DNA of 64,000 nucleotides from an uncultured Acidobacteriaceae bacterium (GTDB taxonomy: Bacteria; Acidobacteriota; Terriglobia; Terriglobales; Acidobacteriaceae): positions 51,741-115,740 of the forward strand of contig CAVRWS010000016.1 of the NCBI GenBank assembly GCA_963724815.1, written 5' to 3'. The position numbers and the translations under genes were made by a program. The notes below the pieces were generated by a model. The model was given only the letters and a program-made list of their open reading frames with translations. It made no database searches and was not told the origin of the DNA. Shown one piece after another: positions 40 through 60,202 of the stretch (within the stretch, counting starts at the first letter, position 1; every line of letters starts with the position of its first letter).

Positions 40-2112
40 TTACCAAACGCGGCAGGCATTCTCCGCCACCATCGGTTGTCCCGCCTTACAGCCCCACGCC
101 TTCTGAAACTCCGGCATGTTCTGCACCACCCCATTCACGCGGTATTTCCCCGGTGAATGAGGATCCGTCAGCACCCGCGCGCGAGCAATCTCCGGACGCC
201 GTTTCTCGCACCACACCCGCCCGAATCCCAAAAAGAACCGCTGCTCCGGCGTGTAGCCATCGATTGTCTGTGCTTCTTTTCCGTTCTTGTCGTCGGCAAT
301 CATCTGCTCCAGCGCCATCAGCGCGATGCGCGCGCCTCCGTTGTCGGCAGTATTCTCGCCGAGGGTGAGCCGTCCATTCAGCTTCAAATCGTCAACCGCA
401 ACAAAGTTCGAGTACTCATTGGCCACGCAACTTACACGCTGTTCAAACTCTTTTCCATCCTGCGCCGTCCACCAGTCGTGCAAGTTGCCGTGGGGATCGA
501 ATTTGCGCCCCTGGTCGTCGAACCCATGCGTGAGCTCATGCCCAATGACCAGCCCAATGCCGCCGAAGTTCACCGCGTCATCCACGTTCTTGTCAAAAAA
601 TGGCGGCTGCAGAATGCCCGCCGGAAAAACAATCTCGTTGAACGACCCGCTGTAATATGCGTTCACCGTGGGCGGAGTCATACCCCACTCCTTGCGATCC
701 AGCGGCTTGTCGATTTTATTAATCTGCCGCTTCGCTTCGAATTCATCCGCGCGTTCGATGTTGCCCATCAGATCATTCGGCTTGATTACGACGGAACTGT
801 AATCGCGGTAAACGTCCGGATAGCCAATCTTGTTGCGAATTGCATCCAGCTTCACCTTGGCTTCTTTCTTGGTTTCGTCGCTCATCCAGGAAAGATCCTG
901 AATGTCGCTGGTCAAAGATTTCTCCAGCGCATCCACCATCTTTAGCATGCGCTGCTTTCCGTCCGGACCAAACGTCACATCCACATATCTCTCTCCGAGC
1001 GCCTCGCCCAGTTCACGATCGGTGAGGTTGACGCAGCGCTTCCAGCGCGCCTGAATCTGCTCTTGGCCGGTGAGCTTTTGCTGAAGTTTGAAGTTGGCGT
1101 CCACAAACGGCTGCGAAAGCCACGGAGCCGCTGCGTTCAGCACATGCCAGCTCACATAGGTCTTCAAAGCATCCAGAGACTCAGCCTCAAGCACTCCATT
1201 CACCAACTTGAAGAACTCTGGATTCGTAACATTCATCTCCGTGAAGTTCGGCGCGCCCACAGCCGTGAAGTAACGATTCAAATAGAAGTCAGGTCCGAGC
1301 GCTGCCGCTTCCTCTCGCGTCATCTTATGATCGCGGTTCTTCGGATCCCGACGCTTGGTCCGGTCCATCGAATCCACGGCCAGCATGGTTTCGATCACCA
1401 GCACGGTCTGCGCGGAGTGCGCTGCCTGCAGCGGAGTTTGCCCCGCAAGAGTGAACAACTGGGTGGCGTAGTCGACCATGAACTGCCGCTTCTCCACTTT
1501 GTCCGGATCGTCCTTGATGTAGTAATCGCGATCCGGCAACGTGAGACCACCCTGGTCGATGTAGGCGATCACCTGATCGGCATTATGCAGATCGGGCGCT
1601 GAATAAAAATTGAACAGCGGACTCGGCCCAGTCAGGTGCACATGCGCGACCTCATCGATGAGCGCGCCTTTATCTTTCACCGCGGCAATGCGTTCCAGTT
1701 CCGCCTTGACCGGCGCTATACCCTTCGCGTCCACGGCTTTCTCATCCAGGCACGATCCGTAGAGATCGCCAATTCTCTGGTCAATGCCATTTCGGCTTGC
1801 TCCGCCCGCGGCGGCCTTCTCCAAAATTCCGTGCAGAATATCGAGATTGCGCTCGTGCAGTTCTACGAAGCTTCCCCACTGCGCCTGATCCGCCGGAATC
1901 TGCGAATTCTTGATCCAGTTGCCACAAGCGTACTGGTAAAAGTCCACACAGGGGTCGATTGTTTTGTCGATAGTATCCAGGCTAAACCCCGGAGCCGGCC
2001 TGGCGGACGGGGAAGTTTGCGCGAAGCAAGCGAGAGTCGAGAGAACAATCAGAAGCAGAAAGAAACGGAACATGCGCATCGCGTGAATTCTCCTTTGCGG
2101 AACGGTTGACAT
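40..2112 (-). CDS. M13-family zinc metalloendopeptidase (PepO/neprilysin-like), secreted
   Basis: 690-aa ORF with N-terminal signal peptide (LLLIVLSTLACFAQ), HExxH motif VIGHELTHGFD and downstream GENTADNGG motif typical of M13 peptidases. Confidence 0.9.
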   Translation of the reverse strand: MSTVPQRRIHAMRMFRFFLLLIVLSTLACFAQTSPSARPAPGFSLDTIDKTIDPCVDFYQYACGNWIKNSQIPADQAQWGSFVELHERNLDILHGILEKAAAGGASRNGIDQRIGDLYGSCLDEKAVDAKGIAPVKAELERIAAVKDKGALIDEVAHVHLTGPSPLFNFYSAPDLHNADQVIAYIDQGGLTLPDRDYYIKDDPDKVEKRQFMVDYATQLFTLAGQTPLQAAHSAQTVLVIETMLAVDSMDRTKRRDPKNRDHKMTREEAAALGPDFYLNRYFTAVGAPNFTEMNVTNPEFFKLVNGVLEAESLDALKTYVSWHVLNAAAPWLSQPFVDANFKLQQKLTGQEQIQARWKRCVNLTDRELGEALGERYVDVTFGPDGKQRMLKMVDALEKSLTSDIQDLSWMSDETKKEAKVKLDAIRNKIGYPDVYRDYSSVVIKPNDLMGNIERADEFEAKRQINKIDKPLDRKEWGMTPPTVNAYYSGSFNEIVFPAGILQPPFFDKNVDDAVNFGGIGLVIGHELTHGFDDQGRKFDPHGNLHDWWTAQDGKEFEQRVSCVANEYSNFVAVDDLKLNGRLTLGENTADNGGARIALMALEQMIADDKNGKEAQTIDGYTPEQRFFLGFGRVWCEKRRPEIARARVLTDPHSPGKYRVNGVVQNMPEFQKAWGCKAGQPMVAENACRVW

Positions 2113-2268
2113 ACTAAGCCTCGCGGTTCTCGCTGGGCAAGGACGACGCAGGGCGGGTTAGCGAGTCATGTGCATGAACCATCTTTCGACGGTTGTTCTT
2201 CATTGCAGCAATCTCGGGCTCCGTCCGAGTATAATCGGGACCTGGACACTCCCATAAGGCTGGCCTAA

Positions 2269-3729
<1,461 letters not shown>

Positions 3730-4026: not shown

Positions 4027-4305
4027 TTGATCCCTGTCTCGGTGCTGGTCGCAATTCTTCTTGCCGAACCCAGAACTGTCCTGATCAACCATGAAGGCAT
4101 TCGCCAGCACCGCCGGCTTCGCGGAGATCGCATCATCGCATGGAATGAGGTCGCCTGGATGGGGAGGGGCCGCAATACCGGGACTACCTACGTCAAGAGC
4201 CGAAACGGAGGTCGACCGGTGTCGTTTTCGCCGCTGCTGGTTGGCCAGTCGCGCTTTGAGCGAGAGGTCCGGAAGCATGCTCGCGACCTCGCGCTGGACG
4301 AATAA
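4027..4305 (+). CDS. hypothetical small membrane-anchored protein; may be the 3' part of a split gene starting near 3774
   Basis: 92-aa ORF (TTG start) with one hydrophobic helix (IPVSVLVAILLA) then a soluble domain. The upstream frame (GTG 3774 to 4094) encodes 2-3 further TM helices and overlaps it, suggesting a frame break around 3990-4027. Confidence 0.3.
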   Translation: MIPVSVLVAILLAEPRTVLINHEGIRQHRRLRGDRIIAWNEVAWMGRGRNTGTTYVKSRNGGRPVSFSPLLVGQSRFEREVRKHARDLALDE

Positions 4306-4405
4306 TTCCCAGGGGTGTCCAGCGCTTGCAGGAAATCCTCGCCGAGCGGCAGCGGAAGCAAGCCCCTGCGCAGTCCTCTCCGAACTCGCAGTGACCAACC
4401 CAGAC

Positions 4406-4918
4406 TTACTCTTGTCGCTGGAGCAAACGGTTCCGGGAAGATCGCGCTGAGCCGAATCGACTGGAGAAAAGCTTATGGCTCTGCTTGCTGAATTGTGAAT
4501 CGAGTCCCGGAGTTGACTTGTTGTTCCTTGTGCTGCCACCGAGCGTGATAATTCCAAGCGAGCATCCCAGGATTTCCAGCGCGAGCAGGATGAAGACACT
4601 CACGTTAAAGATGGCAGTCCAATCTCCGCTCGCCACCATAAAAACGTTGTTTTGAGAGGCGTGCAGGAAGTGCTCATAAAGATCGGCACTCATTGCGGCC
4701 AAAAAGAAAATTACCGAGACAAACCCGGCAACTTTCTCGCTGAGCTTCCACAAGAGAATTGATACGACCGCGTGCCCTGACGTTATCAAAATTATGGCTA
4801 CCCAACTGACGTGGTTGTTCGGCGCTGGAAGAACCTTGGCCGCAAGGAACAGGTGCCAGATAGCGACCATCCAGTGTGCGGCGACAACCAGGAGGGCGAG
4901 CGTCCGTGCTTTCGTCAT
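4406..4918 (-). CDS. hypothetical integral membrane protein
   Basis: 170-aa ORF with about four hydrophobic helices. No family recognised. Confidence 0.5.
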   Translation of the reverse strand: MTKARTLALLVVAAHWMVAIWHLFLAAKVLPAPNNHVSWVAIILITSGHAVVSILLWKLSEKVAGFVSVIFFLAAMSADLYEHFLHASQNNVFMVASGDWTAIFNVSVFILLALEILGCSLGIITLGGSTRNNKSTPGLDSQFSKQSHKLFSSRFGSARSSRNRLLQRQE

Positions 4919-5018
4919 AGGCTGATGCCTTTATCCCCCGGCGGTTGGTTGGCCGGTCTTCGGGAATTATATTACCCGAGTGGCTGTCCAGTCGTGGGTG
5001 GGATCCCCTCGAGAGGCG

Positions 5019-5056
5019 GGTGCCCCATTTCTCGCACCCTTTGCGAGAGCGGGGAT
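5019..5056. repeat. P-family palindromic element, copy 1 (GGTGCCCCAYTTCTCGC-loop-GCGAGARGTGGGGA)
   Basis: ggtgccccatttctcgcaccctttgcgagagcggggat. Near-identical copies at 40544, 44624 and 48766. Lies 3' of the MarC-family gene. Confidence 0.85.
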
Positions 5057-5731: not shown

Positions 5732-7901
5732 CTATCGGTAGCTCTCCAGTGCCTTGGCTGCCCGCTCCAGCGCCGCGGCCAAAACAGCCATTTGTTGCCG
5801 CGCCCGGTCAACGTCCCTTTTATCCAACGCTTCATTCACTCCAGGAATTACCACCGCCGCATATCCCGTATATTCCCCCGGCGCGTAGATCGCATGCCGA
5901 TACCAGGGACGGTGCGGCAGTCCCTCCGGCACCAGCAACGCCCGCTCGGCGCCAAGCAGCGCATGATTCAATCTGGCTGCATCTCGCGGCGGATTTCTCT
6001 GCTTCGAAAGAATTTTCGCGCCCGCATCCTGAAAATGTTTTGCCGCCGTTGTAACTGCGCTGAAATCGAGAACATGATTCCCAAACTTGTTCTCCGCACG
6101 TTTCGCCGCGGCGTCCGCATAAGCGACAACCTCCTTGCCGTATTCCTCGTAGTCGTAAGGCAGTACATCCGCGTCGGCCATGCGCAAAGCCTCCAGCCCG
6201 AAAATTCTCGCCATTTCCTGTTCGTAAAGGAAATCCGGATCGCCGAACTTTTTGAACCAGGCGAAATCGTCGAACGTCGAATGGTACACACCGTAAGGCC
6301 CGCTTGAGCCAATATCGGTAGAAGGCACACCCAGGTGCTGCTGGAACGCGCTGTAGTCGGAACCACTGCCCAAATCTCCCACCGGGACGTCGGCCTTGGC
6401 CGATGCCGCAGGCATGCGGCGCCCGTCGCCAATTGCCTCCGTCGGCGATTGCGTCAATAGGAGCGCCGGTCTGATCCACCCTCTGCCATGCCTCGTAAAC
6501 CGTGCCGCCCTTCGGACTTGGCACCGCCTTGGTCAAGTCTCGCAGGAACTGTTTCAAACTCGGCACCGCTGAGGCGCCAAACTTCGGCCCGGAAACCGCC
6601 ACGTCCACATTAAAATAAGCCGGCGCATTCACCAGTTCGGTTTCATGCTGCTCCGCCCATTCAGTGGAACCCATCAGGCCTTCTTCTTCACCATCCCAAC
6701 TGGCAAAAATCATGGTGCGCTTCGGCTTCCATCCAGACTTCAGCAACTCGCCGACTCCATGTACTGCTTCGAGCATCGCAGCCGTGCCGCTGTTTGGATC
6801 CACCGCCCCATAAACCCATGCGTCACGATGGTTCCCCGCAACTACCCACTCGTCCGGCGATTCGCTGCCGCGCACTCGACCAATCACATCCCACAAAGTG
6901 CGAAATTGATAATCCTGCTTCAGATGCATTTTTACCCGCACCGGCCCCGGCCCCACGTGATAGGTGAAAGGCAAAGCGCCCTGCCATTCCCGCGGCGAAT
7001 CGGGCCCTCCCAGATGCTGCAGAATGGGCCACGCATCGTGATAAGAAAGCGGCGTAACCGGAACCTTCGGCATCTGCGCCGACTGCTCGGGAGAAATGCG
7101 TTTGCTTTCCGGCAATGAAGGCACTGAGGCAATTCCCGGTGTCGTCGGATCGCCAGGAAATTCGAACATGTATCCTACCGACCCGCGCTGCACCCCAGTA
7201 TCGGGCCGCCACGGCCCCTCGGGATATTTATCCCCGCGCCGCCAGCCATCGTCGAACGGATCGGAATAAATAATCACTCCCGCCGCGCCGTGCTCCTGCG
7301 CAATAAATTCCTTTACCCCGCGAAAATTCTGCCCGTAACGCACAATCACAATTTTTCCGCGCACATCGATCTTCAACTTCTCCAGCTTCTCAAAATCTTC
7401 CGGCGTGCCGTAGTTCGCATAGACCACATCCGCCTCGGCATCTCCGGAAGGCGACATTCCGTTGAAAGGCATCACCACCCGTGGATCGTTGTCGTATGGA
7501 TCGCCCTCGACATGCTCGCGCGTAGGCCCATGCATTTCCACTCCAGCGGGCGCCGTGATGTCCACGCTGATTTCCTGCGGATAATTCATCCAGACTTTGT
7601 ATTCGACAATCTCAGTCTCGAGTCCGGCGTCTCGAAATTTCTGCGCGACATAATCGGCGGTCGCTTTGTCCTCGGGCGTGCCCGCCATATGTGGCGCCTG
7701 CGTTAACACACGCAAATGCTCTTCCGCCAGCTTGGGGTCAGGCACAGCAAGAAAGCGAGCCTCGGCACCGTTTTCGGCAGCCGCGTCGCGAAAGCCGAAG
7801 ATGGATTGAGCGGCCGAAGCAGGCGCAGTGCCGCTGACTGTTATTGGAAAACTTGAAAGCATTACGACTGCGGTAAGAAGTGACGCGGACAATGGTCTCA
7901 T
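5732..7901 (-). pseudogene. M28B peptidase, glutamate carboxypeptidase II-like (PA + M28 + TfR-like dimerisation domains); frame broken near 6437-6455
   Basis: Two overlapping ORFs (5832..7901 and 5732..6457) in different frames together give a full GCPII-like protein: HRDAWVYGAVDPNSG, FASWDGEEEGLMGSTEW, LGSGSDYSAF, YHSTFD. The protein-like sequence switches frame between APIDAIADGG and GDGRRMPAAS. Confidence 0.85.
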
Positions 7902-39728: not shown

Positions 39729-40736
39729 TCAATAGGTCCTGGCCGGGACCTTCTCACTGGTCAGGAATTCAATTAGCACCCGGTTAAACTCCTCCGGACA
39801 CTCTTCGTAAGGCAGATGTCCGATCCCCGGAAAAACAACCAGCTCAGAATTCGGAAAGAATTTTCTCAGCGGCTCCGCCGACGAAGCATACACCGCCGTG
39901 TCCTTGCTCCCCCACATCAAGAGTGTCGGAACACCGGCCAGTTCCGGCAAAATCGCTTCTAATTCACGCAGGTCCTGCGTCCAGGTCCGCACAATGCTCA
40001 GCGCGTGTTCGAACAATCCCGGCTTCGCCAGCGGAGCCATATAACCCGCCAGCGCATCCGGAGGAATGCGTCTGCGGTCGCCATACATTCGCGAATGCCA
40101 ATACGGATACGAAAAACCTGTGCGCGCAATCGTGGCCCGGAACAACCCGGCGCCAAAATTGCTGCCGAAAAACGGCGCCAACCTCCGCCCGTGCGCAGAG
40201 TAGGGATTCACCGGATCCACCAGCACCAAACGCCGCAAGCGCAGCCCGCTATTCGCGTCCAGACATTGTGCCGCGGCAAACATCGCAACCGCCCCGCCAT
40301 GCGAAGTCCCCAGCAAATCAAACGACGTCACTCCCAATCCCGCGATAAATCGCAGAAGCCGCCGCGCCGTCCCCCGCATCGAGTGGTCAATCCCCGCCGG
40401 ACGATCCGAAAACCCCGCTCCCAACATATCCGGCGCGTACACCGTGGCATAAGGCGCCAGAGCCGGCATCGTAAATCGCCACGAAAATGAATACCCCAGC
40501 AGCCCGTGTAAAAGAATCAAAACCGGAGCCGGTGAGACTGCGGGTGCCCCATTTCTCGCGTCCTTTGCGAGAAGTGGGGACCTTGTGCGCAAGTACCGCA
40601 TACGAGCGCCGTCGAAATCCATCCAGCACTCTTCAACTCCCGGACTGAATCCCGAAAACGGCGCGGTAGAATCTCCCCGCTGCGCCGCCGGATCCGTTAA
40701 TTCCTCCAGTTTCCGGGACAACTTTTTCCCCACCAC
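39729..40736 (-). CDS. alpha/beta-fold hydrolase
   Basis: 335-aa ORF with LILLHG oxyanion region, nucleophile elbow GTSHGG and C-terminal GHLPYEE. Carries a P-family repeat in frame near its N-terminus. Confidence 0.85.
   Translation of the reverse strand: MVGKKLSRKLEELTDPAAQRGDSTAPFSGFSPGVEECWMDFDGARMRYLRTRSPLLAKDARNGAPAVSPAPVLILLHGLLGYSFSWRFTMPALAPYATVYAPDMLGAGFSDRPAGIDHSMRGTARRLLRFIAGLGVTSFDLLGTSHGGAVAMFAAAQCLDANSGLRLRRLVLVDPVNPYSAHGRRLAPFFGSNFGAGLFRATIARTGFSYPYWHSRMYGDRRRIPPDALAGYMAPLAKPGLFEHALSIVRTWTQDLRELEAILPELAGVPTLLMWGSKDTAVYASSAEPLRKFFPNSELVVFPGIGHLPYEECPEEFNRVLIEFLTSEKVPARTY
40544..40581. repeat. P-family palindromic element, copy 2, located inside a CDS
   Basis: ggtgccccatttctcgcgtcctttgcgagaagtgggga. 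Read in the hydrolase frame as SPLLAKDARNGAP. Confidence 0.85.
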
Positions 40737-42255: not shown

Positions 42256-42300
42256 CGTCCGCAGGACGCCTGGCAATAGCCCGGCGTTTCAACGCCGGGT
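42256..42300. repeat. R-family REP, copy R1 (upstream of RAYT)
   Basis: cgtccgcaggacgcctggcaatagcccggcgtttcaacgccgggt. Two hairpins. 41/45 identical to the reverse complement of 42852-42896. Confidence 0.9.
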
Positions 42301-43002: not shown

Positions 43003-43047
43003 AACGTCCGGAGGACGTTTGAAAATAGCCCGGCGTTTTAACGCCGG
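43003..43047. repeat. R-family REP, copy R3 (same orientation as R1)
   Basis: cgtccggaggacgtttgaaaatagcccggcgttttaacgccggtt, 38/45 identical to R1. A partial copy lies at about 42961-42975. Confidence 0.85.
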
Positions 43048-44612: not shown

Positions 44613-44623
44613 GATTAGCCGGA

Positions 44624-44661
44624 TGCCCCACTTCTCGCCGCCGTTGCGAGAAGTGGGCTGC
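44624..44661. repeat. P-family palindromic element, copy 3
   Basis: gatgccccacttctcgccgccgttgcgagaagtgggct, with a 12-bp perfect stem cccacttctcgc / gcgagaagtggg. Lies between convergent genes. Confidence 0.85.
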
Positions 44662-48039: not shown

Positions 48040-48104
48040 TTTTTGGATCTGTCGTCCTGATGATATTTCCAGCTCTGTCATCCTGAGCGCCCATTTCCAA
48101 CTCT

Positions 48105-48165
48105 GTCATCCTGAGCGAAGGCAGTGCTTCGCGAATGCGAAGCATTGCCGCAGTCGAAGGATCCC
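48105..48165. repeat. W-family element, full copy
   Basis: gtcatcctgagcgaag-gcagtgcttcgcgaatgcgaagcattgc-cgcagtcgaaggatccc. Preceded by two head-only copies (48050-48060, 48075-48089). Confidence 0.85.
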
Positions 48166-48282
48166 TTGCGCCCAAGCGAACCCGTCGCCCGAGCGAGGTA
48201 TTTCGATCACTGGCCACTCAATAAGCCAATCCTCGGTTTATGATGGAAGAGAACTTATTATGGAATTGCATACGGAGGAACT

Positions 48283-48765: not shown

Positions 48766-48806
48766 GGTGCCCCATCCTTCTCGCGCCTTTTGCGAGAGGG
48801 TGGGGA
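48766..48806. repeat. P-family palindromic element, copy 4
   Basis: ggtgccccatccttctcgcgccttttgcgagagggtgggga, between convergent genes. Confidence 0.85.
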
Positions 48807-52283: not shown

Positions 52284-52574
52284 TCCCCGCGCACACAACG
52301 CCCAGCATAAAACAGGATTGTCATTAAACAGGATTGCCATTAAATTAGGCTTGTCATTCCGAAAATTAGGATTGTCATTCCGAGCGCGCCGCAGGCGGGC
52401 GAGAGCCTGCCCTGAGCGGAGCCGAAGGGAACCTGCTCTGAGCGAGTCGAGGGGAACCCGCCGTTCGCGTTTGGGTAGCGCAGCGCTTCAGCGCTGTGAT
52501 CTGGCCAAAAAAATAACCAGCGGCTTTAGCCGCCAAAGTGTTGCACCCGAGATTGTCCCCAGGAATCGAAGCAA

Positions 52575-52603
52575 TTGGAAATTTGAGGCTCCCCGCCTAC
52601 AAT
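52575..52603 (+). promoter_or_regulatory. candidate promoter TTGGAA-N17-TACAAT for a leaderless antitoxin mRNA
   Basis: ttggaa 52575-52580 and tacaat 52598-52603. The ATG at 52611 is only 7 nt after the -10 and has no SD. Confidence 0.35.
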
Positions 52604-52610
52604 AATATTT

Positions 52611-52835
52611 ATGGAAATTTCCCTAGCGCCTGAGCTTGAAGCGAGCCTCGTGAGAATTGCTTCCGAAGCGGGCAAGGCGGCGAATCAAGTCGTCGAGGAG
52701 TTGGTCGCGGACTACCTGCGCCATGACGAATGGTTCAGGCGAGAAGTGCAAAAAGGCGTGGCCTCTTTGGACGCGGGCAAGTTCGTGTCGCATGAAGAAG
52801 TGGGCCGCCAAATCGAGCGCATCCTCAGGCCTTGA
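52611..52835 (+). CDS. ribbon-helix-helix ParD/CopG-like antitoxin, no adjacent toxin gene
   Basis: 74-aa ORF with N-terminal RHH strand-helix (ISLAPELEASLVRIASEAG) and a ParD-like C-terminal tail (VQKGVASLDAGKFVSHEEV). Confidence 0.7.
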   Translation: MEISLAPELEASLVRIASEAGKAANQVVEELVADYLRHDEWFRREVQKGVASLDAGKFVSHEEVGRQIERILRP

Positions 52836-53042
52836 TGACGGTTTTGACTGCCGTTGACCTCGCTGTTGGTTTTGATCGATCCCGAACACGAACCGAATGC
52901 AGCGCCGTGGAAGAGCGGCGCTTCAGCGCCGCGTAAAGCCCCACAATAGATCGGGCTTCAGCCCCTGCGACAACCCGACGCCGCAAAGATACCTGGAATT
53001 TCCTCCCACCAACGTGTAAAAAGGAACCCCGACTGTGAAGGG

Positions 53043-53069
53043 GGCCACGGCAATGCCGTGGCCTTTTTT
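53043..53069 (+). terminator. intrinsic-terminator-like hairpin ending repeat unit 1
   Basis: ggccacggc-aat-gccgtggcc followed by tttttt. Confidence 0.6.
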
Positions 53070-53874
53070 ACCTTGTCATCCTGAGCGAAGCCGAGAGATT
53101 CGCGAAGCGAATCCCTCAGCGTAGTCGAAGGATCCCTACCTCCTCCCGACTCCCGTTCGCACCCGGCCCGTGTGCGAACAGCAGCCCCCGCCTGTCCGCG
53201 CCGCGAAGCGAAGCCCAGCAAGTGTAGAGCGGGCACCCCTGCCCGCTGCCCTTGACCTTGCCGTTGGTTTTGATCTTGCCGTTGGTTTTGATCAATCCCG
53301 AACACGAACCCACGCAGCACCGTGGAAGAGCGGCGCTTAAGCGCCGCGTAAAGCCCCACAATAAATCGGGCTTCAGCCCCCGCGACAACCCGACGCCGCA
53401 AAGATACTTGGCATTTCCTCCCGCCAAAGTGTAAAAAGGAACCCGACTGTGAGGGGGCCACGGCAGCGCCGTGGCCTTCTCTACGCTGTCATCCTGAGCG
53501 AAGCCGAGAGATTCGCCAAGCGAATCCCTCAGCGTAGTCGAAGGATCCCTACCCTCATCCCGACGCCCGCTCGCGACCCGCTCCCATGTGTGCACACCCG
53601 CCCTCGGCTGTCAGGCGAAGCACCTACGTTCGTGTAGAACGGACACTCCTGTCCGTTGCCTTTGACCTTGCTCTTGGTTCTGACTGCCGTTGACCGAGCA
53701 GTTGGTCTTGATTGATCCCGACGCGAGCCCACGCAGCACCGTGGAAGAGCGGCGCTTCAGCGCCGCGGTAAGCTCCCAGATGAATACGGGCTTCAGCCCC
53801 CTTCGGTAACCCGATGCCGCAAAGATACTTGGCATTTCCTCCCGCCAAAGTGTAAAAAGGAACCCGACTGTGAG

Positions 53875-53906
53875 GGGGCCACGGCTTAGGCCGTGGCCCC
53901 TTTTTT
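53875..53906 (+). terminator. intrinsic-terminator-like hairpin ending repeat unit 3, directly abutting the RBS of the PIN-like gene
   Basis: ggggccacggc-ttag-gccgtggcccc (11-bp stem) followed by tttttt, then GGAGGA (53907-53912) and GTG 53921. Confidence 0.65.
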
Positions 53907-53920
53907 GGAGGACCTCGACG

Positions 53921-55270
53921 GTGCGAAAGACATTTGTCGGCTATTACCGACCCACAGAAACCGAGTTCAACCAGTTATGGGATAAGTGCATCTTCGTACT
54001 GGACGCGAATGTCCTCCTGAATCTTTACCGCTATACAGAGGAGACACGCAAGAAGCTTATAGACATACTCCAAAGGATCAAGGGACGACTCTGGGTTCCT
54101 CACCAAGCGGCTCTCGAGTATCAACGCAACCGTCTCGAAGTCATTTCCGCCCAAAGAGAAGCGTATACGGAGATAGAACGCTTACTGTTAGAGACCCAGA
54201 AGAAACTGGACTCCCAAGTGAGAAGCTACAAGCGGCACACGCTTATCAATACCAGTAAATTGCTAGAGCCCATAGATAAAGCGCTTGCGGCTCAGGTTGA
54301 GACGCTGAAAGGGACCCTTCAGAAACATCCCAACCTAGTCGAAAAGGATGATGTCCGAGAGATACTGACGAAGCTCCTAGCCGGAAAAGTTGGGCCGCCG
54401 TACTCCGAAGAAAAGCTGGCACAAATTTATAAAGACGGGGAGCAACGGTATGCCAAATCAACGCCGCCTGGGTTCAAGGACGCGAAATCCAAAGATGGTC
54501 AGCGAGCCTTCGGCGACCTGGTGCTGTGGTATCAGGTAATGGACAAGGCAATCGCAGACAAAGTGCCAATAATCATTGTGACTGACGACGTTAAGGAAGA
54601 CTGGTGGTGGCGACACGAAGGCAAGATTATTGGGCCTAATCCCGAGTTGATTGAAGAGATATGGAAAAAAGCGAGCGTAGGCTTCTATATGTATGTGTCC
54701 GACCAATTTATGGAGTACGCGAGGGAACACCTCAAGGAACAAGTCGACCAAGGAGCAATCGACGAGATACGCGAGGTCCGGAAATTAGATGAGCAAAGCC
54801 GGATTCGCTTTCAGACGGCTTTGCACAGCGAGAAGTTCATCAACAACCTTCGGGTGCAACTTGTGTCCTCGGACGCTGAGACAATCAAAACCCGCGCTGA
54901 GATAGAGGCAATTAATAACAGGCTCACAGAAATAAGGGCGCAGCCCCACGAGTTGGGCCAAGAGGAACAGAAACTAGAACTGGTCGCGAGCCTCTCGATG
55001 CGAGTCGGAGAGCTTGAGGGCAGATACCACGCTCTCGAAATAAGACGAAACGAACTCGAAACACGGCTGCGCGCCGCCCAGGATAAGCGCAATGTGGCGG
55101 TACACCGCAGGCCCGAAACCTTCCAAATGGTGAGGACCGGAGACGGCCGTTTCCATGCGGTGCCCGCGCGAGTCGCCAGCGGGCAGACCCCAGCCCGTGA
55201 CGGGACTCCGAACGTCCACCCCCCGAAAAAACCCGCGCCGGGGCAGGCAGCTAACGACGAGCAAGAATAG
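53921..55270 (+). CDS. PIN-like domain protein with C-terminal coiled coil and Pro-rich tail
   Basis: ORF 53870..55270. Likely GTG start 53921, 8 nt after GGAGGA. PIN-like blocks FVLDANVLLNLYRY, VPHQAALEYQRN, FGDLVLWYQV and IIIVTDDVKEDWWW. Heptad-rich segment around residues 300-400. Many ATA/AGA/AGG/TTA/CTA codons that are rare in flanking genes. Confidence 0.75.
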   Translation: MRKTFVGYYRPTETEFNQLWDKCIFVLDANVLLNLYRYTEETRKKLIDILQRIKGRLWVPHQAALEYQRNRLEVISAQREAYTEIERLLLETQKKLDSQVRSYKRHTLINTSKLLEPIDKALAAQVETLKGTLQKHPNLVEKDDVREILTKLLAGKVGPPYSEEKLAQIYKDGEQRYAKSTPPGFKDAKSKDGQRAFGDLVLWYQVMDKAIADKVPIIIVTDDVKEDWWWRHEGKIIGPNPELIEEIWKKASVGFYMYVSDQFMEYAREHLKEQVDQGAIDEIREVRKLDEQSRIRFQTALHSEKFINNLRVQLVSSDAETIKTRAEIEAINNRLTEIRAQPHELGQEEQKLELVASLSMRVGELEGRYHALEIRRNELETRLRAAQDKRNVAVHRRPETFQMVRTGDGRFHAVPARVASGQTPARDGTPNVHPPKKPAPGQAANDEQE

Positions 55271-55636
55271 ACAACCAGCTGGCCCCGTTTTACATACCGT
55301 TCAGCGCTCCAGCTCTGTGACATCTAACCTTTTCATCCACAGCCCCAACCACTGATCATCAAAGCGAAGGCAGAGCGGCACCATGATTCGTCGTCGTCCA
55401 GCGCGGGCCAACTCCTTTGCTTCACGTATTTTGACCTCTAAGCTCTTTGAAAAACGGATTTTGCGTAGAATTTCCTGCTCACCCTATGATTCCCCATAGA
55501 CCATGGAATAGGGGGGAGGGTACCCCACGAACCAAGCTCCGATGCCCGAAAAGGGTCGCGGGAAGATCGGCAGCCGTGCAGATGGGAAGAGGCGGACAGT
55601 AGTGTCCGCCCCACACGAGCAACGCGGTACCAGCTA

Positions 55637-56971
55637 TTAGCTCACAACCTTATCCGTAATCTCCAGCCCGCAATCGATAATGGCAAACGCTTCGCGCAGT
55701 TGCTGTTCGTTGATGCACAGCGGAGGATTGGTAAAGAAAGTGTTCCAGCGCACGAACGTGTAAAGCCCCTGCTCGCGGAAGAAGCGCCCGAGCGCGGCCA
55801 TTTCATCGGACGTGCCATTGAACGGAGCCATCGGCTGGCGCGTCTTGCGATTGCGAATCAGTTCGACGATGCCAAATAAACCAATCGACCGCACCGCTCC
55901 CACCGACGGATGCTTCGCATGCAGTTCGGTCCCAAGTTGCGTCAAAATCGCGCCCATTTTTTTCGCGTTGTCGATCAGGCCATCTTCTTCATAGACGCGA
56001 ATGGTCGCCAGCGCCGCCGCGCAGCCCATGGGATGGCTGTTGTAAGTCAGCCCTCCATAAAACACCTTGTCCTGAAAATGCTGCGCGATGTGATGCCGCA
56101 TGCCCACAGCGCCGAGAGGAAGATAGCTGGAAGTCAATCCTTTCGCCATGCAAAGCAGATCGGGAACAACCTTCCAGTGATCGACCGCAAACCAGGAGCC
56201 AGTGCGTCCGAAGCCCGACATCACTTCATCGGCAATCATCAGGATTCCATACTTGTCGCAAAGCTTGCGCACGCCTTCGAGATATCCGTCAGGCGGAACA
56301 AGAATGCCATTCGTTCCAGTAACCGGCTCAAGGATGAACGCCGCAATCGTCTGCGGACCCTCAAGCTGAATCGTCTCCTCAATCATGGCAAGCGAAGATT
56401 CCGCCGATTCCCAACCGCGCTCGATGCCATGATAAGGATCAAGCACATGAATCACGCCCGGAATGCCAGGTTCCGCGGCCCATCTGCGGGGATCGCCGGT
56501 GAGACTGATCGCTCCCGCAGTTGCGCCGTGATAAGAACGATAGCGCGCGATGATCTTGTGACGTCCAGTAAAGAAGCGCGCGAGCTTGATGGCGTTCTCG
56601 TTCGCGTCGGCTCCGCCGTTGGTGAAGAAGAATGTGTCAATATCGCCGGGAGTGATTTCGGCAAGCTTGGCGCCGAGCCGCGCGCGAACTTCCGTCGCCA
56701 TGAAAGGGTTCGCATACGCAAGCGTTGCGGCTTGTTCGCTGATCGCTTGAATGACGCGCGGGTCGCCGTGTCCAATGTTGACGGACATAAGCTGGCTATT
56801 GAAGTCGATGAAGCGCTTGCCCTCGGGCGTGTAGAAATAAATTCCCTTGGCGCTGGCAACCGGAATCGGATCGACCTTCGATTGCGCCGACCATTCGTAG
56901 AGCGTGTGCTTGCGCGAGAGATCCACGATTTCCTTGCCCGTCAGGGAAGTGGTTTCAGCGATGGTGGTCAT
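55637..56971 (-). CDS. class III omega-aminotransferase (beta-alanine/taurine:pyruvate type)
   Basis: ORF 55637..57346. Likely start ATG 56971 (MTTIAETTSLTGKEIVDL). PLP-lysine region DLLCMAKGLTSSYLPLGAV. Confidence 0.9.
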   Translation of the reverse strand: MTTIAETTSLTGKEIVDLSRKHTLYEWSAQSKVDPIPVASAKGIYFYTPEGKRFIDFNSQLMSVNIGHGDPRVIQAISEQAATLAYANPFMATEVRARLGAKLAEITPGDIDTFFFTNGGADANENAIKLARFFTGRHKIIARYRSYHGATAGAISLTGDPRRWAAEPGIPGVIHVLDPYHGIERGWESAESSLAMIEETIQLEGPQTIAAFILEPVTGTNGILVPPDGYLEGVRKLCDKYGILMIADEVMSGFGRTGSWFAVDHWKVVPDLLCMAKGLTSSYLPLGAVGMRHHIAQHFQDKVFYGGLTYNSHPMGCAAALATIRVYEEDGLIDNAKKMGAILTQLGTELHAKHPSVGAVRSIGLFGIVELIRNRKTRQPMAPFNGTSDEMAALGRFFREQGLYTFVRWNTFFTNPPLCINEQQLREAFAIIDCGLEITDKVVS

Positions 56972-57000
56972 AGTTAATCCTTTTTGGCCTCCGTGATCCA

Positions 57001-57045
57001 CTGTGTTCTCTGTGTTTAAGAACTTCTTCACCACAGAGAACACAG
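57001..57045. repeat. C-family hairpin: perfect 14-bp inverted repeat
   Basis: ctgtgttctctgtg (57001-57014) and cacagagaacacag (57032-57045), between the aminotransferase start and the mmsA stop. Confidence 0.85.
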
Positions 57046-57074
57046 AGGTCACAGGATAAATCCGAAGAAGCCTG

Positions 57075-58568
<1,494 letters not shown>

Positions 58569-58629
58569 GGGGTTGCCTCTGCTATCGCGAAGAGTTGCAT
58601 GCACTCAATCAATGATACCAATGCTTATA

Positions 58630-58695
58630 GGGATCCTTCGACTGCGGCTGTCCTTCGCGCTTGACGCGCGATAGACAGTCCTCGCTCAGGATGAC
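58630..58695. repeat. W-family element (reverse orientation)
   Basis: gggatccttcgactgcgg...cctcgctcaggatgac, between the mmsA start and the gabT stop. Confidence 0.85.
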
Positions 58696-58715
58696 AAAAC
58701 GTGACGACAAAGCTC

Positions 58716-60078: not shown

Positions 60079-60131
60079 CTCAATTTCTCGTGAGAACGCT
60101 ATAAATAGCCACAGGCGTTTCCATGCGCATT

Positions 60132-60196
60132 GGGATCCTTCGACTGCGGTTGATCTTCGCGCTTTGGCGCGAAGATCAATCCTCGCTCAGGATGAC
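60132..60196. repeat. W-family element (reverse orientation) with perfect 13-bp central stem
   Basis: gggatccttcgactgcgg-ttgatcttcgcgc-tttg-gcgcgaagatcaa-tcctcgctcaggatgac. Ends 6 nt before the ALDH stop codon. Confidence 0.9.
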
Positions 60197-60202
60197 AACA
60201 TT

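What the first reader, a model, noticed from the sequence alone, without database searches (positions are those of the whole stretch)
52836..53906. 1.07-kb intergenic gap built from ~2.6 tandem copies of a ~400-420 bp composite non-coding unit
Right after the stop of the ParD-like gene, the sequence repeats in phase three times. Each unit has five parts:
- An X module of 9-18 nt direct repeats. CTTGCCGTTGGTTTTGAT is perfectly duplicated at 53257-53274 and 53275-53292.
- Two REP-type hairpins (CCGTGGAAGAGCGGCGCTTCAGCGCCGC and CGGGCTTCAGCCC).
- A highly conserved Z module ending in a GC hairpin.
- A W-family element. 53075-53136 and 53488-53549 differ at one position.
- A diverged tail with further GC hairpins (GCGGGCA-CCCC-TGCCCGC and AACGGACA-CTCC-TGTCCGTT).

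The third unit stops after the Z module, at the RBS of the next gene. Bacterial intergenic tandem repeats of this unit size are uncommon. The mix of near-identical and diverged sub-modules suggests selection on parts of the unit rather than a recent neutral duplication.
Basis: seen in the sequence. Interest (0 to 1): 0.7.

Follow-up and report, generated by a model that had tools for sequence, protein, structure and literature searches.

The report
Tandem repeat beside variable defence-gene slot
The 1.07-kb gap is a real three-copy tandem repeat found only in this strain: it is built from short palindromic repeats plus a conserved hairpin-ended element ("Z") which, in related soil Acidobacteria, sits once just upstream of an ever-changing defence-type gene.

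Summary
The array is real: period 415 bp, 2.5-2.6 copies, 84% matches, window 52840-53898. The units are X-REP-Z-W-tail, X-REP-Z-W-tail and X-REP-Z.

The organism is a Candidatus Sulfotelmatobacter-like acidobacterium. About 20 orthologous loci from other assemblies hold zero or one X-REP-Z copy and never W-tail between copies. The triplication is therefore a copy-number variant seen only in this assembly.

Divergence differs strongly between modules (W 96%, tail 67%; chi-square p = 4e-9). Individual modules resemble alleles in other strains more than their neighbours in the array. Recombination and mosaicism explain this better than selection on parts. The closest known kind is a REP/BIME-type cluster repeated in tandem together with flanking DNA.

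The unexpected part is Z, about 90-135 nt ending in an invariant GC hairpin and a T run. It recurs at three or more unrelated chromosomal places in related MAGs. A co-oriented, strain-variable gene usually starts 21-76 nt downstream (PIN_8, SIR2, OLD nuclease, AAA ATPases, DUF7002). A second conserved element, RB (TGTGACATCYRACCTTG), usually follows that gene.

My best guess is that Z is a leader and leaky terminator gating toxic cargo. A cassette-exchange role is not excluded.

The parts
52611..52835 (+). ParD/RelB-like antitoxin gene (74 aa). It is orphaned here: no ParE gene anywhere in the window.
   Evidence: ORF. Weak NCBIfam RelB/ParD hits. The same protein overlaps a ParE_toxin gene (PF05016) in L011, L002 and L003. 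tblastn with ParE against the window finds nothing. A promoter-like TTGGAA-17-TACAAT lies at 52575-52603.
52836..53250 (+). Unit 1 (X-REP-Z-W-tail).
   Evidence: TRF period 415; alignment.
53251..53663 (+). Unit 2 (X-REP-Z-W-tail).
53664..53906 (+). Unit 3, partial (X-REP-Z only). It ends at the T run just before the RBS of the PIN_8 gene.
52844..52894 (+). X module of unit 1: a run of 9/18-nt TTGnnnnnn repeats. Other copies are at 53251-53310 and 53664-53729.
   Evidence: X copies are only 63-65% alike. Similar runs follow the tail-type hairpin in L005, L018 and L020.
52907..52938 (+). REP1: GTGG head plus the GCGGCGCTTCAGCGCCGC hairpin. Other copies are at 53322-53353 and 53741-53772.
   Evidence: REP1-like copies lie at non-orthologous places in L015, L019, L026 and L027.
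52950..52965 (+). REP2: the small hairpin CGGGCTTCAGCCC. Other copies are at 53365-53380 and 53785-53800.
52980..53069 (+). Z1, a copy of the conserved Z element. Hairpin 53041-53063, T run 53064-53069.
   Evidence: CM R1 hit, 96 bits. Hairpin -27.9 kcal/mol. Closest to the Z of L004.
53395..53482 (+). Z2. Hairpin 53454-53476, followed by a degenerate T run (TTCTCT).
   Evidence: CM R1 hit, 109 bits. Hairpin -28.6 kcal/mol.
53816..53906 (+). Z3. Hairpin 53875-53900, T run 53901-53906. It lies directly upstream of the RBS and start of the cargo gene.
   Evidence: CM R1 hit, 109 bits. Hairpin -30.5 kcal/mol. Loop and 3' arm resemble those of L008 and L012.
53070..53140 (+). W element, a dispersed Acidobacteria repeat (TGTCATCCTGAGCGAAGC...GTCGAAGGATCCCTAC). 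The second copy is at 53483-53553.
   Evidence: 96% identity between the two copies. Other family members in the window lie at about 48075-48166 (+), 58628-58697 (-) and 60132-60198 (-), and many more in related loci.
53141..53250 (+). Tail of unit 1, ending in the GTAG-headed REP-type hairpin GTGTAGAGCGGGCACCCCTGCCCGC (53222-53250). The tail of unit 2 is 53554-53663, with its hairpin at 53632-53660.
   Evidence: The two tails are only 67% alike. The two hairpins differ by paired changes (GCGGGCA/TGCCCGC versus ACGGACA/TGTCCGT). U1's type occurs in L012; U2's type occurs in L004, L005 and L020.
53921..55270 (+). Cargo gene: PIN_8 (PIN-like nuclease domain) protein, 449 aa, about 50% G+C against 56-63% in the flanks.
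   Evidence: Pfam PF18476, E = 2.7e-68. Composition. Different genes take its place in relatives.
55316..55332 (+). RB core (TGTGACATCTAACCTTT), the right-hand conserved element of the variable slot. Conserved non-coding DNA continues to about 55600.
   Evidence: Chance expectation is 0.12 matches per window.

Best explanation
What it is (mostly shown). This is a copy-number variant of a REP/BIME-like mosaic, seen only in this assembly. The non-coding segment X-REP-Z lies once, in related Sulfotelmatobacter-like genomes, between the ParD-like antitoxin gene and a variable downstream gene. Here it is present three times, with a dispersed W repeat and a GTAG-type REP hairpin (the tail) between copies. 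The locus lies between peptidase S58 and a class-III aminotransferase and is a recombination hotspot. Within it, a toxin-antitoxin module, REP-type modules and defence-type genes are gained, lost and swapped.

How it arose (inferred). The likely route is unequal or ectopic homologous recombination and gene conversion between the repeated X/REP/Z modules, partly between diverged alleles of different strains. That gives some near-identical modules (W, REP, Z) and some dissimilar ones (X, tail).

How it works (inferred). Z is the functional core. It is a conserved leader about 90-135 nt long. It carries a -35/-10-like pair (TTGGCA, 17-18 nt, TAAAAA) and ends in an invariant 12-bp GC hairpin plus a T run, on the same strand as the next gene and 21-76 nt ahead of its start. 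I propose that Z supplies and/or gates transcription into the promoter-less, potentially toxic cargo gene, acting as a weak promoter plus a leaky intrinsic terminator or a 5' stem-loop. In this window the two extra Z copies are most likely by-products of recombination. They would place up to three terminator hairpins in series between parD and the PIN_8 gene.
For: The array is real.

Orthologous loci:
- L008, L009/L010, L012, L005, L020 and L027-L030 each carry one Z.
- L011, L025, L026, L006/L007 and L013 carry none.
- No other locus carries more than one.
- L001-L003 are 99% identical to the window up to 52843 and then continue into parE or something else.
- L011 is 95% identical upstream and has an intact parDE with no X-REP-Z.

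Mosaic relationships of X, Z, the terminator and the tails to alleles in other strains are shown. Rate heterogeneity has p = 4e-9.

W is dispersed, and REP1 and the tail recur elsewhere. [quoted passage not shown]

Z family:
- 18 aligned copies have an invariant stem and a variable 3-5 nt loop.
- Conservation among copies stops at the T run.
- Z lies at locus A, at locus B (L014-L016, L019, L021-L023, which are orthologous to each other upstream of Z) and at L018's locus.
- 14 of 20 distinct copies have a co-oriented ORF of at least 150 aa starting 21-76 nt after the stem.
- At locus B, a GIY-YIG-like ORF (motif read by eye) about 250 nt upstream of Z in L022 lies on the opposite strand. Read-through from that neighbour cannot drive the cargo there.
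- The cargo proteins are nuclease, NADase or ATPase types typical of defence systems.
- Hairpin energies are -28 to -30.5 kcal/mol.
Against: - There are no expression data, so the promoter and terminator roles are inferences.
- The consensus scan called neither a promoter nor a + strand terminator in Z. The T run can pair with the A/G run 5' of the stem, which defeats that scan. The -10-like TAAAAA lacks the usual final T.
- No base pair in Z shows a compensatory change.
- Most Z copies outside this locus were found with an exact 25-base pattern from Z itself, which inflates the apparent conservation of that stretch.
- Z2 has a poor T run.
- Two Z copies (L016, L021) have no ORF of at least 150 aa starting within 160 nt.
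- Three copies are seen in one assembly only, and I could not look at reads.
- The sharp, shared cargo boundaries (Z's T run on the left, CTGTGACATC on the right) are not an obvious product of plain homologous recombination.
Confidence: 0.6

Rival explanations
1. Z and RB are the two ends (or attachment sites) of a cassette system served by a recombinase encoded elsewhere. Cargo genes are inserted or exchanged site-specifically between Z's hairpin and RB. The three Z copies in the window would be stacked cargo-less cassettes or duplicated sites left by repeated events.
For: - Z and RB bracket co-oriented, unrelated cargo at three or more non-homologous places.
- 12 of the 14 Z-bearing loci with enough downstream DNA have RB in the same orientation. 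No RB without Z was seen in about 420 kb.
- Boundaries are sharp. Variation starts at Z's T run, and in L004 and L017 RB starts right after the cargo stop codon.
- L021 has Z and RB only about 95 nt apart, which looks like an empty slot.
- L022 has two RB copies 172 nt apart, mirroring the repeated Z here.
- The hairpin stem is invariant while the loop length varies. That fits recognition of a folded single strand, as in IS200/IS605 ends or attC.
Against: - No integrase, transposase or Y1/HUH gene lies next to any slot. The only one is an IS110 transposase about 5 kb away in L011, which lacks Z.
- The left junction is not at a fixed base. In L004 the cargo starts 13 nt into W.
- No cargo was found at two different loci apart from one 28%-identical fragment.
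- Z and RB share no terminal inverted repeats or flanking direct repeats that I could see. No attC-like R/L boxes were seen by eye.
- The unit repeated here includes 175 nt of ordinary REP material.
Confidence: 0.15
2. One reading: the array encodes repeated functional RNAs, for example three paralogous small RNAs each ending at a Z terminator. Purifying selection would act on Z and W but not on X and the tail.
For: - Z is highly conserved and ends in a terminator-like hairpin.
- An A-rich stretch (AAAAAGGAA) and a CCUCCC stretch precede the hairpin.
- Whole units fold better than shuffles (z = -4.9 and -3.6).
- Rfam gives only weak matches of the hairpins to the terminator ends of sRNA families.
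Against: - No Rfam family reaches its threshold.
- No covariation.
- Relatives keep one Z, or none, at this locus, so three copies are not required.
- W is a generic dispersed repeat.
- Module similarity tracks alleles in other strains, not a within-array gradient.
- Z is tied in position to the start of the next gene, which points to action in cis.
Confidence: 0.12
3. Assembly artefact: alleles of co-existing strains were chained in tandem by a metagenome assembler.
For: - The source is a metagenome-assembled contig.
- The three units each resemble alleles seen in other strains.
- Short-read contigs of the closest strains break or diverge exactly here.
- No other assembly shows more than one Z.
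Against: - The units are in phase, with unique W-tail joints.
- Both joint types exist in independent assemblies: tail to X in L004, L005 and L020, and Z to the start of W in L004.
- The copies are diverged enough to be placed unambiguously.
- Sister assemblies of this project look like long-read assemblies with contigs up to megabases. If so, single reads should span 1 kb. This point is inference.
Confidence: 0.05
4. A type III toxin-antitoxin-like arrangement: the repeats are an RNA antitoxin for the PIN_8 nuclease, separated from it by a terminator as in toxI-toxN.
For: Direct repeats, then a terminator, then a nuclease gene on one strand. An 18-nt perfect duplication lies in X.
Against: - The unit is 415 nt, not about 36 nt.
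- The same Z precedes unrelated proteins (SIR2, OLD, AAA ATPases, DUF7002), so there is no specific RNA-protein pairing.
- Relatives have one copy.
- PIN_8 is not a ToxN/AbiQ-type fold family, and PADLOC gives no hit.
Confidence: 0.03

Closest known systems
REP clusters / BIMEs (bacterial interspersed mosaic elements)
   Same: Extragenic, non-coding mosaic of short GC-rich palindromes with GTAG/GTGG heads plus other conserved motifs. It is repeated in tandem together with flanking DNA, varies in copy number between strains, and has stem-covarying subfamilies (PMC3733652).
   Different: The unit is large (415 bp). It embeds a low-copy, non-REP element (Z) that is tied to gene starts. No RAYT/Y1 transposase was examined. 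Genome-wide copy numbers are unknown. The phylum (Acidobacteriota) was not among those listed with GTAG REPs in that survey.
Defence-island hotspots / Neisseria 'minimal mobile elements' (variable gene cassettes between conserved flanks; from my own knowledge of Saunders & Snyder 2002 and recent hotspot surveys)
   Same: Conserved flanking genes (peptidase S58 ... aminotransferase). Different whole genes occupy the same slot in different strains. No mobility genes are present. The cargo is defence-type.
   Different: Here the slot is also bracketed by two conserved non-coding elements (Z and RB) that recur at other, non-homologous loci, and the cargo always has one orientation.
Integron cassette arrays / CALINs and Acinetobacter pdif modules
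   Same: Promoter-less, co-oriented genes are each preceded by a conserved structured site. Sites can occur in series, and the recombinase need not be adjacent.
   Different: No IntI or attC architecture and no Xer-type 11-6-11 sites were seen. Usually one cargo lies in each slot. The left junction is not at a fixed base.
Small dispersed regulatory repeats such as Neisseria Correia elements, ERIC or BOX
   Same: Elements of about 100-150 bp next to gene starts that can supply promoters, terminators or RNA-processing hairpins.
   Different: Z is low-copy (2-3 places found per genome with my pattern). It has no terminal inverted repeats and is specifically next to variable defence-type genes.
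Type III toxin-antitoxin loci (toxIN)
   Same: Repeats, then a terminator, then a nuclease gene on one strand.
   Different: Repeat size, lack of RNA-protein specificity, and single copy in relatives (see rival explanations).

Membership tests
REP / BIME cluster | Short imperfect palindromes with a conserved GTAG-type head | tested here: met
   Tail hairpins GTGTAG + GCGGGCA-CCCC-TGCCCGC and GTGTAG + ACGGACA-CTCC-TGTCCGT. REP1 is GTGG-AAGA + GCGGCGC-TTCA-GCGCCGC. The head/stem format is as described in PMC3733652.
REP / BIME cluster | Members dispersed in many extragenic copies through the genome | tested here: inconclusive
   W has five or more copies in the 64-kb window and many in related loci. 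REP1 and the tail-type hairpin occur at non-orthologous places in L015, L019, L026 and L027, and at window ~55590. X18, REP2 and Z do not occur outside this kind of locus in the DNA held. No whole genome could be counted.
REP / BIME cluster | Mosaic tandem arrangement of REPs with other conserved motifs, varying in copy number between strains | tested here: met
REP / BIME cluster | Associated RAYT (Y1) transposase in the genome | not tested
   The window was not scanned for Y1 transposases, and the whole genome is not available.
Intrinsic (Rho-independent) terminator (Z hairpin) | GC-rich stem-loop followed directly by a U run on the transcribed strand | tested here: inconclusive
   Stems of 12-14 bp, -28 to -30.5 kcal/mol. 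T6 follows Z1 and Z3, but TTCTCT follows Z2. Other Z copies have 4-7 T. The consensus scan did not list them. There are no 3'-end data.
Structured RNA family (sRNA or riboswitch) | Match to a curated family, or covariation supporting a fold | tested here: not met
   No Rfam match at gathering score in the window or related loci. Zero of 20 predicted pairs show compensatory change in 18 Z copies.
Integron / attC cassette array | IntI integrase with attI nearby, and attC sites with R''-L''/L'-R' boxes at cassette 3' ends | tested here: not met
   No integrase Pfam among called genes within about 10 kb in 15 related loci. Inspection of Z and RB by eye shows no GTTRRRY/RYYYAAC pair. No integrase search of whole genomes was possible.
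Type III toxin-antitoxin (toxIN-like) | Short (~34-37 nt) tandem RNA repeats specific to one ToxN-family endoRNase | tested here: not met
   The unit is 415 nt. The same Z lies upstream of unrelated proteins. PADLOC gives no hit for the PIN_8 protein.
Type II parDE toxin-antitoxin module | Antitoxin gene followed by an overlapping ParE toxin gene | tested here: not met
   The antitoxin is intact and differs at one residue from that of L011. No ParE is in the window. ParE is present in L011, L002 and L003.
Variable-gene hotspot (defence island / minimal mobile element) | Conserved flanking genes with different whole genes in the slot in different strains | tested here: met
   Across the S58 peptidase ... 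aminotransferase interval the cargo is PIN_8, SIR2_2, DUF7002, DUF2254 + 572 aa, or proteins of 262, 241 or 403 aa.

The most novel reading that the evidence does not exclude
Z (left) and RB (right) define a previously undescribed, recombinase-in-trans cassette slot, or a shared regulatory chassis, for defence genes in Sulfotelmatobacter-like Acidobacteria. Unrelated toxic effector genes would be plugged in, in one orientation, behind a common conserved leader and terminator at several chromosomal sites. The tandem array in this window would be a fossil of repeated slot turnover.
Probability: 0.25. Interest if true: 0.8.

Novelty: new variant of a known kind. Interest (0 to 1): 0.55.

Why it matters
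The array on its own adds an acidobacterial example of REP/BIME-type tandem amplification. It also shows how such clusters erase a toxin gene and leave an orphan antitoxin.

The more useful outcome is the Z...RB bracket. These are two conserved non-coding elements that flag, and perhaps control or mobilise, single-gene defence cargo at several loci in an abundant but uncultured peat-soil lineage.

If Z is a common leader, it points to shared regulation of unrelated defence genes. If it is a recombination site, it would be a new route of defence-gene exchange without adjacent mobility genes. Either way, Z and RB could serve as sequence handles to mine unknown defence genes from Acidobacteria metagenomes. 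Candidates are the unannotated cargo proteins of 215+572, 262, 403 and 540 aa.

Tried and rejected
- Rfam, whole window at gathering score, and the region and RB at permissive E-values: nothing meaningful.
- ParE remnant inside the array, by tblastn and short-word blastn: none.
- Small ORF on the minus strand starting at GGGAGGAAATG inside Z: the ATG is absent in several copies and the peptides are unrelated, so it is not coding (reading).
- Sigma-54 promoter in Z: the GG-GC spacing is off by one and the GC is not conserved (reading).
- Antiterminator pairing of CCUCCC with the stem: the motif is not conserved in L018, L012 and L023.
- Z in viral contigs: none with two patterns.
- Extra diverged Z copies in all DNA held, using a covariance model: none beyond those already known.
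- Same cargo at two different loci: only a 28%-identical 74-aa fragment linking L005 and L014.
- tRNA or tmRNA as an integration target: none in the window or in 14 of the 15 loci scanned. The exception is a tRNA-Ile inside the L022 slot.
- The first Z pattern found nothing in GTDB representative genomes and two metagenome contigs. A second pattern was needed.
- Look-ups of the PIN_8 protein and of the source contig by exact protein found no record.
- Literature searches for Sulfotelmatobacter defence systems and for PF18476 returned nothing.
Full report
**1. The observation**

Tandem Repeats Finder reports one array at window 52840-53898: period 415, 2.5 copies, 84% matches. Aligning 52836-53249, 53250-53662 and 53663-53906 puts the three units in phase.

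- Each full unit runs X (9/18-nt TTG-repeats), then REP (two hairpins), then Z (conserved block ending in a GC hairpin and T run), then W, then tail.
- Unit 3 stops after Z at 53906. GGAGG follows at 53907 and a GTG start at 53921.
- The perfect 18-nt duplication at 53257/53275 holds, as does the single difference between the two W copies.
- U1 versus U2 identity is uneven: X 65%, REP 92%, Z 89%, W 96%, tail 67% (chi-square 44.8, p = 4e-9).

**2. Genes on either side**

- Upstream, 52611-52835 encodes a 74-aa protein with no Pfam hit and weak RelB/ParD NCBIfam hits.
- Downstream, 53921-55270 encodes a PIN_8 (PF18476) protein. Its G+C is about 50% against 56-63% around it.
- A class-III aminotransferase converges from the right (55637-57346, minus strand).
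- Source names of near-identical aminotransferases place the window in Candidatus Sulfotelmatobacter-like Acidobacteriota MAGs.

**3. What relatives have at this place ('locus A')**

I fetched orthologous loci through exact-protein look-ups and DNA pattern scans.

- Three short metagenome contigs (L001-L003) are 99% identical to the window up to 52843, eight bases past the antitoxin stop, and then diverge. L002 and L003 run into an overlapping ParE-type toxin gene. L001 has only the first bases of that gene.
- L011 is 95% identical upstream. It has an intact parD-parE (PF05016), a different 241-aa gene and no X-REP-Z.
- L008 and L009/L010 are 85-90% identical. They keep the antitoxin gene and one contiguous X-REP-Z, followed by a 262-aa protein (L008) or a 654-aa SIR2_2 protein with LmuA/Dsr1/ThsA-like PADLOC hits (L009).
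- L012 has an internally deleted parD and one Z.
- L020 and L027-L030 have one Z without parD. The cargo is a 403-aa protein or DUF7002.
- L025, L026, L006/L007 and L013 have no Z.

Copy number at this locus is therefore 0 or 1 everywhere else and 3 here. W-tail never lies between copies elsewhere. The window has no parE and no remnant of it, so the antitoxin is orphaned.

**4. Mosaic, not clean duplication**

Module by module, the three units are not each other's closest relatives.

- U1's Z shares its diagnostic bases and loop with L004.
- U2's and U3's Z match L005, L008 and L009.
- U3's loop and 3' arm match L008 and L012.
- U2's X matches L004.
- U1's tail hairpin matches L012, and U2's matches L004, L005 and L020.
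- The two tail hairpins differ by paired stem changes, as REP subfamilies do (PMC3733652).

This pattern, together with the rate heterogeneity, points to unequal or ectopic recombination and gene conversion among repeated modules and between strain alleles. It does not require selection on parts of a recent duplicate.

L004, an independent assembly, contains the tail-to-X joint and the joint from Z to the start of W. The joint types of the array therefore exist elsewhere.

**5. Which modules are dispersed**

- W is a dispersed family: five or more copies in the window and many in related loci.
- REP1 and tail-type hairpins recur at non-orthologous places: L015 and L019 upstream of another Z, L026, L027, and window ~55590.
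- X18, REP2 and Z are not found outside this kind of locus in the DNA held.

[quoted passage not shown] That is what this array looks like.

**6. Z is something else**

A first exact pattern from Z found nothing in GTDB representative genomes and two metagenome contigs, L004 and L005. A second pattern found 11 places in 9 Acidobacteriaceae/Sulfotelmatobacter MAGs, two per genome in two of them.

Seven of these places (L014, L015, L016, L019, L021, L022, L023) are orthologous to each other upstream of Z. This 'locus B' is unrelated to locus A, and the seven differ downstream of Z. L018's left flank is different again.

Eighteen aligned copies show the following:
- an invariant stem GGGGGCCACGGC/GCCGTGGCC(CC);
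- a variable 3-5 nt loop;
- a short T run;
- a near-invariant AAAAAGGAAyCCGACTGTGA before the stem;
- a TTGGCA box 17-18 nt upstream of TAAAAA, with a variable spacer between them.

There is no compensatory change in any predicted pair. Part of the apparent conservation is ascertainment, because the search pattern lies in that stretch.

A covariance model (R1) finds no further copies in about 420 kb held. Z is absent from IMG/VR with two patterns. No Rfam family matches.

**7. Z is tied to the next gene**

In 14 of 20 distinct copies, an ORF of at least 150 aa starts 21-76 nt after the stem, on the same strand. The exceptions are U1 and U2 here, the degraded L005 and L012, and L016 and L021.

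The cargo genes are unrelated to each other. They include:
- PIN_8 and SIR2_2;
- an OLD-family nuclease (AAA_15 + TOPRIM);
- an AAA_15/AAA_21 ATPase and a PHP + SMC-like ATPase;
- DUF7002, and DUF2254 plus a 572-aa protein;
- several proteins with no family.

There is little room for a separate promoter. At locus B, a GIY-YIG-like ORF (motif read by eye) lies about 250 nt upstream of Z in L022, on the opposite strand. Transcription of the cargo should therefore start in or just before Z and pass the hairpin.

This is the basis for my mechanistic proposal: Z is a weak promoter or leader plus a leaky intrinsic terminator or 5' stem-loop. It would keep potentially toxic cargo at low, insulated expression. 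The proposal is inference. The consensus scan called neither a promoter nor a terminator there.

**8. A right-hand partner**

The 16-17 nt core TGTGACATCYRACCTTG (RB, window 55316-55332) lies after the cargo, in the same orientation as Z.

- It is present in the window, L004, L005, L009, L014-L018, L021, L022 (twice, 172 nt apart) and L027-L030.
- That is 12 of the 14 Z-bearing loci with enough downstream DNA. There is no RB without Z in the DNA held. The chance expectation is 0.12 matches per window.
- In L004 and L017 RB begins right after the cargo stop codon.
- In L021, Z and RB are about 95 nt apart with no gene between them.
- About 300 nt to the right of RB is also conserved between locus A (L005) and locus B (L015, L016, L018).
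- L011, which lacks Z, also lacks the RB core.

No recombinase gene lies next to any slot. No cargo was seen at two different loci. The left joint is not at a fixed base in L004. A cassette or recombination-site role for Z and RB is therefore possible but unproven. I give it 0.15-0.25.

**9. Verdict**

The finding is a real, composite tandem array. In kind it is a REP/BIME-like cluster amplified by recombination at a hypervariable toxin-antitoxin and defence locus. Its three-copy state is specific to this assembly.

It belongs to a low-copy conserved leader/hairpin family that, together with RB, brackets variable defence-type genes at several loci in this lineage.

I score the array itself as ordinary and the Z...RB architecture as moderately novel and worth a census and transcript mapping.

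Noticed in passing
window 52611-52835; L011 12658-13157; L002, L003: The ParD/RelB-like antitoxin is orphaned in this strain. Relatives 95-99% identical upstream still have the overlapping ParE toxin gene, and the breakpoint is 8 nt after the antitoxin stop (52843/52844). L012 shows yet another decay state, an internal deletion of parD joined to the REP region.
   Followed up: yes
window 55316-55600; L014 7888, L015 4185 (-), L017 560 (-), L021 28 (-), L022 1239 and 1411 (-): A conserved right-boundary element RB (TGTGACATCYRACCTTG), plus about 300 nt of conserved non-coding DNA containing two ATTTTG/ATTTTA boxes about 29-30 nt apart. It always lies downstream of a Z element and its cargo.
   Followed up: partly
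L022 1523-1595 (+): A tRNA-Ile(GAT) gene sits inside the variable slot, between the OLD-nuclease cargo and the two RB copies. No tRNA was found in the other slots.
   Followed up: no
L015 (Z-oriented 4067-4624), L016, L018: A conserved Cys-rich protein of about 185 aa (MSLNKNTRxCTHIKVNGxRCGSPSLRxEVFCYFHQRMIRG...) with no Pfam or NCBIfam family lies just right of RB at locus B and at L018's locus.
   Followed up: partly
window 5017-5054, 40541-40578, 44620-44657, 48766-48803; L005 2781-2823: Another dispersed palindromic repeat family (CGGGTGCCCCATTTCTCGCG..CTTTGCGAGAAGTGGG). In L005 a copy takes the place of the REP1/REP2 hairpins upstream of Z.
   Followed up: no
window 52306-52470: Short tandem repeats (16-nt CATTAAACAGGATTGT x3.2, a 21-nt unit x2, a 25-nt unit x2.2) and W-like elements lie upstream of the antitoxin promoter. 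The same arrangement occurs in L011 and L012.
   Followed up: no
window 52456-52498 (-); L014 4205-4250 (-): The hairpin upstream of parD gives a sub-threshold Acido-Lenti-1 (RF01687) match (14.6 bits). A genuine Acido-Lenti-1 hit (57 bits) lies about 750 nt upstream of Z in L014.
   Followed up: no
window 42256-42298 and 43005-43047; 58621-58697 and 60123-60198: Further pairs of intergenic repeats 84-86% identical. The second pair are W-family members downstream of the aldehyde dehydrogenase and neighbouring genes.
   Followed up: no
L004 353-2715; L015 (Z-oriented 1798-3420); L020 (Z-oriented 6319-7530); L008 11363-12151: Several slot cargo proteins (215+572 aa, 540 aa, 403 aa, 262 aa) have no Pfam or PADLOC hit. 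By position they are candidates for unknown defence genes.
   Followed up: partly
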